Shown piece by piece: positions 2,382-2,441 of a stretch of DNA of 4,010 bases (positions within the stretch are counted from its first letter, which is position 1; the number at the start of each line of letters is the position of its first letter). A model generated the notes under the pieces. It was not told the origin of the DNA. It searched no databases and saw nothing but the letters and a program-made list of their open reading frames with translations. The stretch comes from a virus (taxonomy: Duplodnaviria > Heunggongvirae > Uroviricota > Caudoviricetes), in IMG/VR virus record IMGVR_UViG_2671180637_000010, positions 1-4,010 of that record. One strand, given 5' to 3'. The translations under genes were made by a program, and so were the position numbers.

Positions 2382-2441
2382 AAAAAAATAGCCCAGAGCC
2401 GTTATGCAGATATTAACAATTGTCTGCGAACGGGGCTGGGC
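2382..2441 (-). terminator. Extended imperfect stem-loop followed by a U-run (terminator- or attenuator-like) in the cI-to-NYN intergenic region
   Basis: Minus strand reads AGCCCAGCCCCGTTCGCAGACAATTGTTAATATCTGCATAACGGCTCTGGGCT then ATTTTTTT. AGCCCAG pairs with CTGGGCT, CCGTT with AACGG and GCAGA with TCTGC. The U-run ends about 10 nt before the NYN start codon. Confidence 0.3.

What the first reader, a model, noticed from the sequence alone, without database searches (positions are those of the whole stretch)
2382..2441. Terminator-like stem-loop plus U-run between cI and the NYN gene
On the minus strand an extended imperfect hairpin is followed directly by ATTTTTTT, about 10 nt before the NYN start codon. 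To my knowledge lambda rexA is simply co-transcribed with cI from pRM, so a structured U-run element here would mean the downstream gene is attenuated or conditionally expressed. That would fit a gene whose product could be toxic.
Basis: inference. Interest (0 to 1): 0.45.

Follow-up and report, generated by a model that had tools for sequence, protein, structure and literature searches.

The report
Conserved terminator hairpin leading NYN gene
A very strongly conserved RNA hairpin with a U-tail sits just after its own promoter and just before a prophage nuclease gene, so it most likely throttles that gene and ends the repressor transcript; stray copies in unrelated phages hint that the short RNA may also act on its own.

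Summary
On the minus strand, 2441..2391 folds into a 16-bp, three-helix hairpin (-23.6 kcal/mol, z -5.25) followed by UAUUUUUUU, 9 nt before the NYN start codon.

It is not simply a cI/NYN spacer terminator. Homology to lambda stops about 5 nt after the cI stop and resumes at tImm, so a cassette (promoter, hairpin, NYN) replaces rexAB. A sigma70-like promoter (TTGACG-17-TAGATT, 2481..2453) ends 11 nt before the hairpin. The same arrangement holds in 22 of 22 distinct NYN-linked relatives, from E. coli to Pseudomonas and Acinetobacter.

The helices covary (8 of 16 pairs). The loop keeps a GUUA motif. The hairpin stays 90-100% identical where NYN third-codon positions are only 37-46% identical.

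Distant NYN homologues, including Gram-positive phages and Bacteroidales, carry other hairpin-plus-U-run leaders at the same place. Rfam 15 holds none of them.

Orphan copies lie at the tR' position of other lambdoid phages. In two virulent Chaseviridae phages an orphan copy exactly replaces a tRNA gene.

Best reading: a promoter-proximal attenuator and insulator of a probably toxic nuclease, with a sequence-specific ligand. An RNA-antitoxin or decoy role is not excluded. No transcript data were available.

The parts
2391..2441 (-). 51-nt leader hairpin. Helix 1 is 2441-2436 with 2396-2391. Helix 2 is 2433-2429 with 2403-2399. Helix 3 is 2427-2423 with 2410-2406. The apical loop is 2422-2411 (CAAUUGUUAAUA).
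   Evidence: Fold -23.6 kcal/mol, z -5.25. Covariation in 8 of 16 pairs. RNAalifold gives the same structure. 90-100% identical where the NYN CDS is 65-75% identical.
2382..2390 (-). U-tract UAUUUUUUU directly after the GC-rich basal helix.
   Evidence: Sequence. A U-run is kept after the hairpin in all type A relatives and in most other leader types.
2453..2481 (-). Sigma70-like promoter of the NYN cassette. The -35 is TTGACG (2481-2476), the spacer is 17 nt, the -10 is TAGATT (2458-2453). The predicted +1 is about A2446.
   Evidence: Promoter scan, 9 of 12 matches. In 22 of 22 distinct NYN-linked upstream regions a promoter with 8-10 of 12 matches ends 8-13 nt (mode 11) before the hairpin, with hexamers conserved and spacer variable. 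It is absent at the three orphan contexts.
2384..2446 (-). Predicted short terminated RNA (about 63 nt, from +1 to within the U-tract). This is also exactly the segment shared at 98% identity with two virulent Chaseviridae phages.
   Evidence: BLAST extents and alignment. Fold -25.0 kcal/mol, z -5.95. The RNA ends are predicted, not measured.
2465..2482 (-). Inverted repeat GTTGAC-N6-GTCAAC overlapping the -35 hexamer. It could be an operator, or a hairpin in cI read-through RNA.
   Evidence: Sequence. TTGAC-N6-GTCAA-like repeats recur in the enteric relatives. Function unknown.
1515..2372 (-). NYN-domain gene (285 aa), the gene served by the leader.
   Evidence: Pfam NYN PF01936, E 6.8e-9. 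PHROG 5783. AF2 model pLDDT 85, with Foldseek top hits the LabA-like protein 2qip and the MARF1 NYN domain. Conserved Asp residues D9, D164, D170, D189, D191.
1478..1507 (-). tImm-like intrinsic terminator closing the cassette, where lambda homology resumes.
   Evidence: Terminator scan. Alignment to the lambda rexB-OL region.
2500..3213 (-). Lambda-type cI repressor gene. Its pRM/pRE transcripts would run into the hairpin.
   Evidence: ORF list and Pfam HTH_3 plus Peptidase_S24. Homology to lambda ends about 5 nt after the stop codon.

Best explanation
The hairpin plus U-run is the promoter-proximal leader (attenuator) of a self-contained NYN-nuclease cassette that sits where lambda carries rexAB.

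Proposed mechanism. A sigma70 promoter (2481..2453) starts transcription about 4-5 nt upstream of the hairpin (around 2446). RNA polymerase then transcribes the 51-nt hairpin and the U-tract, and most complexes terminate. This yields a roughly 63-nt RNA, and only a minority of transcripts reach the NYN start codon 9 nt further on. The same structure stops pRM/pRE transcripts leaving cI, so NYN expression is uncoupled from repressor expression and kept low.

Because the whole hairpin sequence, including the GUUA-containing loop, is conserved far beyond what termination needs, the hairpin is probably also the binding site of a specific factor. The NYN protein itself is the most likely candidate, acting through autoregulation of read-through or mRNA stability.

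Shown here: the structure, its covariation, its co-location with a promoter, the cassette boundaries and its linkage to NYN genes. Inferred: the transcription start, termination, the read-through fraction and the identity of the ligand.
For: - Stability: -23.6 kcal/mol, z -5.25.
- A GC-rich basal helix abuts a tract with 8 U in 9 nt.
- Covariation in 8 of 16 pairs, 94% paired against 30-42% for slid controls. RNAalifold agrees.
- A promoter with conserved hexamers and variable spacer lies at a fixed distance in 22 of 22 NYN-linked relatives.
- Cassette boundaries against lambda fall at the cI stop and at tImm.
- The hairpin travels with NYN, not with cI, in Photorhabdus, Xenorhabdus, Ewingella, Pseudomonas and Acinetobacter.
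- CM R1 finds it 5' of NYN in L047-L057 with E from 1e-22 to 8e-8.
- Distant homologues carry other hairpin-plus-U-run leaders at the same position: type B in Acidobacteria, Burkholderiales, Halomonas, Burkholderia phage phiE202, Streptococcus phage Javan84 and Dorea phage; type C in Bacteroidales.
- The same hairpin occupies the tR' terminator position after Q-like genes in L041 and L127/L131/L146.
- The hairpin is 90-100% identical while NYN third-codon positions are 37-46% identical and the promoter region 54-69%.
Against: - No transcript data. The TSS, the 3' ends and the termination efficiency are all predicted.
- The 12-nt loop and two internal loops are atypical for efficient intrinsic terminators, and the consensus scan did not call it.
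- The leader is too short to hold an alternative antiterminator fold, so any conditional read-through needs an unidentified trans factor.
- The extreme sequence conservation and the orphan copies in unrelated phages are not explained by attenuation alone.
Confidence: 0.6

Rival explanations
1. The roughly 63-nt terminated hairpin RNA is a trans-acting partner of the NYN nuclease: an antitoxin, self-immunity RNA or substrate mimic in a non-repetitive, type III-like toxin-antitoxin or abortive-infection module. The terminator sets a high RNA-to-protein ratio. Orphan copies in virulent Chaseviridae phages and at tR' of other lambdoid phages are captured anti-defence decoys. This is compatible with attenuation and could hold in addition to it.
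For: - The promoter, structured RNA, terminator, nuclease gene order is the type III TA layout (PMC5086642). It also resembles the AbiF/RCd22 layout (PMC12373285).
- The hairpin sequence is conserved far more than the CDS.
- The loop or internal-loop motif differs between NYN clades.
- The orphan segment in BSBP01 and Shi_2KOFFS matches exactly the predicted +1-to-U-tract unit. It replaces a tRNA gene, and these phages lack NYN.
- The slot downstream of cI is occupied by a known defence gene, bstA (PMC8585504).
Against: - No tandem repeats.
- NYN is not a ToxN/CptN/TenpN-type toxin.
- Toxicity of NYN is untested.
- Orphans at tR' are equally explained by reuse of a good terminator.
- PADLOC gives only weak hits to HEC-09 and NYN.
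Confidence: 0.2
2. It is only the terminator and insulator of the cI transcript. The upstream promoter-like hexamers are non-functional, and NYN is made solely by read-through.
For: Position directly 3' of cI. Terminator anatomy. Three independent NYN deletions keep the hairpin (Sakai Sp1, AU5Stx1).
Against: - The hairpin is linked to NYN where no cI is present.
- Promoter hexamers are conserved at a fixed distance in 22 of 22 relatives while the spacers diverge.
- Homology to lambda breaks right after the cI stop, so the hairpin came in with NYN.
Confidence: 0.08
3. It is a 5'-terminal stabiliser hairpin of the NYN mRNA (ompA-type protection against 5'-end-dependent decay). The U-run serves as an A/U-rich translation enhancer rather than a terminator.
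For: The predicted start is only 3-5 nt before the helix in all relatives. The Shine-Dalgarno sequence is weak or absent, with U-rich sequence before the start codon.
Against: - A U-run directly abutting a GC-rich helix is kept even in GC-rich Pseudomonas and Burkholderia loci.
- The same element sits at terminator positions (tR') elsewhere.
- A stabiliser does not need loop-sequence conservation.
Confidence: 0.07
4. It is a DNA-level element: a conserved boundary or linker sequence that promotes module exchange between phages. The RNA fold is incidental.
For: 100% identical hairpin between diverged flanks. Presence at mosaic joints in unrelated phages.
Against: Compensatory base changes preserve pairing. 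There is a strand-specific U-run and a fixed relation to a promoter and a start codon. It is conserved in chromosomal, non-phage loci.
Confidence: 0.04

Closest known systems
Type III toxin-antitoxin loci (ToxIN, CptIN, TenpIN)
   Same: A single promoter, then a structured RNA, then a Rho-independent terminator, then a ribonuclease gene. The terminator is thought to set RNA excess over toxin. Phages can escape by acquiring the RNA (PMC5086642).
   Different: There is no tandem repeat array; the hairpin is itself the terminator. The protein is NYN/PIN-like, not ToxN-like. Toxicity and neutralisation are untested.
AbiF / RCd22 (abiF RNA motif) of a C. difficile prophage
   Same: [quoted passage not shown]
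   Different: The protein family differs (Abi_2 against NYN), as does the RNA. No Rfam family, abiF included, matches the window.
Lambda pR'-tR' module (6S RNA) and Q antitermination
   Same: A constitutive promoter is followed closely by an intrinsic terminator that blocks the downstream genes. The very same hairpin occupies the tR' position after Q-like genes in L041 and L127/L131.
   Different: In the window the terminator starts about 5 nt after +1, with no room for a qut-type pause site. No antiterminator is known for it.
Lambda cI-rexA-rexB operon
   Same: Same genomic slot between cI and tImm, with accessory (exclusion) genes expressed in the lysogen.
   Different: The lambda spacer has no hairpin plus U-run, and rexA is co-transcribed with cI (established knowledge). 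Here a terminator and a separate promoter intervene.
BstA / aba self-immunity element
   Same: A defence gene lies directly downstream of the prophage cI and has a roughly 63-bp cognate element at its 5' end. That element confers immunity on any phage carrying it (PMC8585504).
   Different: aba acts as DNA, has terminal CCCGCC direct repeats and overlaps the gene start. The element here is a strand-specific RNA-type hairpin upstream of the start, and the protein family is different.
Morons (autonomous promoter-gene-terminator inserts in lambdoid phages)
   Same: The cassette has its own promoter, is closed by a terminator, and is inserted between conserved genes with sharp homology breaks.
   Different: It has an additional terminator between its own promoter and its gene.

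Membership tests
Intrinsic (Rho-independent) terminator | GC-rich stem immediately followed by a U-rich tract on the transcribed strand | tested here: met
   The basal helix GCCCAG/CUGGGC is followed by UAUUUUUUU. The U-run is conserved in relatives.
Intrinsic (Rho-independent) terminator | Compact hairpin (loop 3-8 nt, few internal loops) | tested here: not met
   A 12-nt loop and two internal loops. Not called by the consensus scan.
Intrinsic (Rho-independent) terminator | Causes transcript 3' ends in vivo or in vitro | not testable with these tools
   No RNA-end data were reachable. Literature and supplement searches for Sakai Sp1 (ECs0273/0274) found nothing.
Intrinsic (Rho-independent) terminator | Occupies positions where terminators are expected in other genomes | tested here: met
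   It lies after a Q-like gene plus leader (the tR' slot) in L041 and L127/L131/L146.
Type III toxin-antitoxin system | Tandem array of short repeats encoding the RNA antitoxin | tested here: not met
   TRF finds none in 2300..2560.
Type III toxin-antitoxin system | Rho-independent terminator between the RNA and the toxin gene, with a single upstream promoter | tested here: met
   By sequence prediction only.
Type III toxin-antitoxin system | ToxN/CptN/TenpN-type endoribonuclease toxin neutralised by the RNA | tested here: not met
   The protein is NYN (PF01936), and its fold matches LabA-like and MARF1 NYN. Toxicity and neutralisation are not testable here.
Any curated RNA family (Rfam 15), including abiF, AgvB/AsxR, STnc100 and C4 | Covariance-model match | tested here: not met
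   No hit with E<=1 in the window. Only noise with E<=10 in 2360..2500. No hit at the leaders of 20 homologous loci or of phiE202.
BstA/aba | 63-bp element with terminal CCCGCC direct repeats overlapping the start of the gene, acting as DNA | tested here: not met
   There are no such repeats and the element lies upstream of the start codon. aba features are from PMC8585504.
Lambda-type cI-rex operon | Downstream gene co-transcribed with cI, with no terminator in the spacer | tested here: not met
   The spacer differs from lambda from about 5 nt after the cI stop and holds a promoter plus a terminator-like hairpin.
Moron | Own promoter and terminator, inserted between conserved neighbours | tested here: met
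   Promoter. tImm-like terminator. Sharp homology breaks against lambda. Promoter activity itself is not testable here.

The most novel reading that the evidence does not exclude
The 63-nt hairpin RNA is the cognate RNA partner (antitoxin, self-immunity RNA or substrate mimic) of a widespread prophage NYN ribonuclease defence toxin. This would be a single-hairpin, repeat-less analogue of type III toxin-antitoxin systems, found with clade-specific hairpin types from Proteobacteria to Firmicutes and Bacteroidota. The orphan copies, which replace a tRNA gene in virulent Chaseviridae phages and sit at tR' in other lambdoid phages, would be captured RNA decoys that disarm it.
Probability: 0.2. Interest if true: 0.85.

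Novelty: new variant of a known kind. Interest (0 to 1): 0.6.

Why it matters
- If the reading is right, the slot lambda uses for rexAB holds in many Stx and lambda-like prophages (275 of 5426 complete E. coli genomes, including O157:H7 Sp1/CP-933H) a nuclease gene. That gene is kept behind its own promoter-proximal terminator and is transcriptionally insulated from the repressor.
- The leader appears to be an undescribed RNA motif, absent from Rfam 15. It travels with a large NYN family (more than 7000 proteins) across phyla.
- This gives a concrete handle on what these uncharacterised NYN proteins recognise.
- The near-identical orphan copies in virulent phages make an RNA-based defence and counter-defence hypothesis directly testable with simple genetics.

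Tried and rejected
- **Loop-to-mRNA pairing.** The loop CAAUUG could pair with the Leu-Ile-Asp codons UAAUUG at the NYN 5' end. An apparent compensatory change appears in Proteus phage Brookers, and the pairing holds in Yersinia and L129. It fails in Tatumella, Photorhabdus and Pseudomonas, so it was dropped.
- **Loop complement elsewhere in the window.** No site other than the hairpin itself.
- **Known prophage sRNAs.** Pas sRNAs, AgvB/AsxR and STnc100 lie in the late region, and no Rfam hit was found.
- **Experimental transcript evidence.** The supplement of the Hfq-CRAC study has nothing at ECs0273/0274. Full-text searches for ECs0273/0274 and CP-933H gave no transcript-end data.
- **Literature on NYN genes next to cI, or NYN with an RNA motif.** Nothing relevant.
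- **A first, mis-registered structure string for the type B alignment.** It gave 41% pairing. The corrected string gave 75%.
- **CM R1 does not reach the type B, C or D leaders**. Whether they are homologous or only analogous to type A is open.
- **The d'Aubenton-Carafa terminator score** was not used, because I could not verify its constants.

Full report
**Context.** The window is a lambdoid immunity region. On the minus strand lie a lambda-type cI (2500..3213), lambda-like N (616..948) and OL/pL. On the plus strand lie OR, cro and cII. Between cI and OL, lambda has rexA-rexB; the window instead has a 285-aa NYN-domain gene (1515..2372, minus strand; Pfam PF01936). The window is nearly identical to Escherichia phage ev099. 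The same cI-NYN stretch occurs in phage 2B8, in many Stx2a phages and in O157:H7 prophage Sp1/CP-933H.

**The observation.** The coordinates are exact.
- The minus strand of 2441..2391 forms three stacked helices (6, 5 and 5 bp) with a 12-nt loop.
- UAUUUUUUU (2390..2382) follows, then 9 nt, then the AUG.
- The fold is -23.6 kcal/mol against -10.7 +/- 2.5 for shuffles (z -5.25).
- The generic terminator scan missed it only because of its loop-size limit.

**Whose element is it?** Aligned with lambda, homology stops about 5 nt after the cI stop codon and resumes at the tImm hairpin. The unit that replaced rexAB therefore runs from just after cI to just before tImm, and it includes the hairpin. 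Between the cI stop and the hairpin lies a sigma70-like promoter, TTGACG-17-TAGATT (2481..2453).

I collected relatives from four sources: phage records, IMG/VR contigs, GTDB genomes and metagenomes.
- In 22 of 22 distinct NYN-linked upstream sequences, a promoter matching 8-10 of 12 consensus positions ends 8-13 nt (mode 11) before the hairpin base. The hexamers are kept while the spacers diverge.
- Transcription would therefore start about 4-5 nt before the helix, around A2446.
- Outside enteric phages the gene upstream of the cassette is not a repressor.
- The hairpin therefore belongs to NYN, not to cI.

**Conservation.** A 14-sequence alignment covers E. coli, Proteus phage Brookers, Tatumella, Yersinia, Photorhabdus, Ewingella, four Pseudomonas, Acinetobacter and two orphan copies.
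- 94% of cells are paired, against 30-42% when partners are slid.
- Double-sided changes occur in 8 of 16 pairs.
- RNAalifold predicts the same fold.
- A covariance model built from the alignment finds the element directly 5' of NYN in L047-L057, with E from 1e-22 to 8e-8.
- The loop keeps C-A-W-U-N-G-U-U-A-R. The GUUA core persists even in Proteus penneri, Marinobacterium and a Thiohalomonadales MAG, whose stems share no sequence with E. coli.
- The hairpin is 90-100% identical in lineages where the NYN CDS is 65-75% identical, third-codon positions are 37-46% identical and the promoter region is 54-69% identical.

That is much more constraint than a generic terminator needs.

**Other leader types in more distant NYN homologues (40-46% identity).** These carry different hairpin-plus-U-run leaders at the same place.
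- Type B has an 8-bp basal helix, an internal loop 5'-CAGUAMG / 3'-CCGAN (a bulged-G, loop-E-like consensus, by my own reading), a covarying upper helix, and then a U-run.
  - It occurs in Acidobacteria, Burkholderiales, Halomonas, Elusimicrobia, Burkholderia phage phiE202, Streptococcus phage Javan84 and a Dorea phage.
  - 75% of cells are paired and 9 of 15 pairs show double-sided changes.
- Bacteroidales homologues have a longer version directly after a TAnnTTTG-type promoter.
- Rhodanobacter and Dyella homologues have a GC hairpin with a CAUCC loop after a TAGAAT box.
- Rfam 15 matches none of these leaders.
- I found no paper describing them.

**Orphan copies.** The type A hairpin also occurs without NYN.
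- In L041 and in L127/L131/L146 it lies about 250-290 nt downstream of a Q-like antiterminator gene. It lies upstream of tRNA-Arg in L041, and of kinase, phosphatase and lysis genes in L131. This is the classical tR' slot.
- In the virulent Chaseviridae phages BSBP01 and vB_Shi_2KOFFS, a 62-nt copy (98% identical to E. coli) exactly replaces the tRNA-Arg gene that GJ1, SA91KD and TH24 carry at that site.
- The shared segment is window 2384..2446, which is exactly the predicted +1-to-U-tract RNA.
- These two phages have no NYN homologue.
- None of the orphan contexts has the promoter.

**The protein.**
- The AF2 model (pLDDT 85) matches the LabA-like protein 2qip and the MARF1 NYN endoribonuclease domain.
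- The family keeps the acidic residues typical of PIN/NYN nucleases, plus many conserved Arg and Lys in a family-specific insertion.
- PADLOC gives only weak hits, and the PHROG is of unknown function.
- Independent deletions in Sakai Sp1 and in phage AU5Stx1 inactivate NYN but keep the promoter and hairpin.

**Interpretation.** The best-supported reading is a promoter-proximal attenuator that doubles as the cI transcript terminator. It would give mostly a roughly 63-nt RNA and a trickle of NYN mRNA. The hairpin would also serve as the recognition site of a sequence-specific factor, most simply NYN itself. The layout is that of type III toxin-antitoxin loci (PMC5086642) and of AbiF/RCd22 (PMC12373285). 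It lacks their repeats and uses a different protein. The slot downstream of cI is a known home of defence genes with cognate 5' elements, as with BstA/aba (PMC8585504).

A trans-acting antitoxin or decoy role for the RNA would explain the orphan copies and the extreme conservation. It rests on inference only. All statements about transcription start, termination and read-through are predictions, because no RNA-end data could be reached with these tools.

**Verdict.** The element is a member of an apparently undescribed, widespread leader-RNA class tied to NYN genes. I class it as a new variant of a known kind (terminator-type leader or attenuator), with a plausible and more novel RNA-partner reading.

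Noticed in passing
window 2465-2482 (minus strand): Inverted repeat GTTGAC-N6-GTCAAC overlaps the -35 hexamer of the NYN promoter. TTGAC-N6-GTCAA-like repeats recur in most enteric relatives but not in Pseudomonas. It could be an operator for an unknown repressor, or a hairpin in cI read-through RNA.
   Followed up: partly
L001 1292-1355 (phage BSBP01); L002 2501-2561 (vB_Shi_2KOFFS); compare L007, L008, L009: In two virulent Chaseviridae phages the 62-nt hairpin unit exactly replaces a tRNA-Arg gene present in their relatives. It lies upstream of a 46-aa acidic ORF and the Rz-like spanin genes.
   Followed up: yes
L041 3566-3616; L127 2801-2851; L131 (reverse complement) about 1978-2028; L146: The same hairpin sits at the tR' position downstream of Q-like antiterminator genes in other lambdoid phages. 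In L041 a tRNA-Arg(TCT) follows directly. In L131 a Ser/Thr kinase, a PP2C phosphatase and lysis genes follow.
   Followed up: yes
L071, L082, L105, L110, L121, L123, L126, L134 (phiE202) 1410-1475, L135 (Javan84), L136 (Dorea phage), all just 5' of the NYN homologue: This is a second leader type. It has an 8-bp basal helix, a conserved internal loop 5'-CAGUAMG / 3'-CCGAN that fits the bulged-G (sarcin-ricin or loop E) consensus, a covarying upper helix and a U-run. It is spread over several phyla and absent from Rfam 15.
   Followed up: partly
L080, L090, L099, L107, L109, L112-L114, L117, L118, L120 (Bacteroidales), 5' of NYN homologues: This is a longer, roughly 73-nt hairpin (GCUCAYGGC...UUGAUAAUGG...CCUUGAGC plus a U-run). 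It starts right after a TAnnTTTG Bacteroides-type promoter box.
   Followed up: no
L132 5424-5813 (Sakai Sp1, ECs_0273); L006 2199-2500 (phage AU5Stx1): Independent deletions truncate or remove most of the NYN gene but leave the promoter and hairpin intact. The AU5Stx1 junction lies at a CTGACTG direct repeat, and there is an extra frameshift in a T-run.
   Followed up: partly
L133 1816-1927 (lambda cI-rexA spacer): Lambda has its own small hairpin GGGGAAUUUUCACUCCCC between cI and rexA. It has no U-run and is unrelated in sequence to the window's element.
   Followed up: no
L056 1557-1642 (minus strand), Pseudomonas arsenicoxydans: A full-length C4 antisense RNA (RF01695, 80.5 bits), the P1/P7-type immunity RNA, lies about 280 nt upstream of the NYN leader. 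This suggests that this NYN cassette also sits in a prophage immunity region.
   Followed up: no
window 2373-2381 and relatives: The NYN start codon has a weak or absent Shine-Dalgarno sequence (UGGGA or UGGA, none in Brookers). In enteric versions the 5' CCA(A) before the hairpin could pair with the UGG of that weak SD across the U-tract.
   Followed up: no
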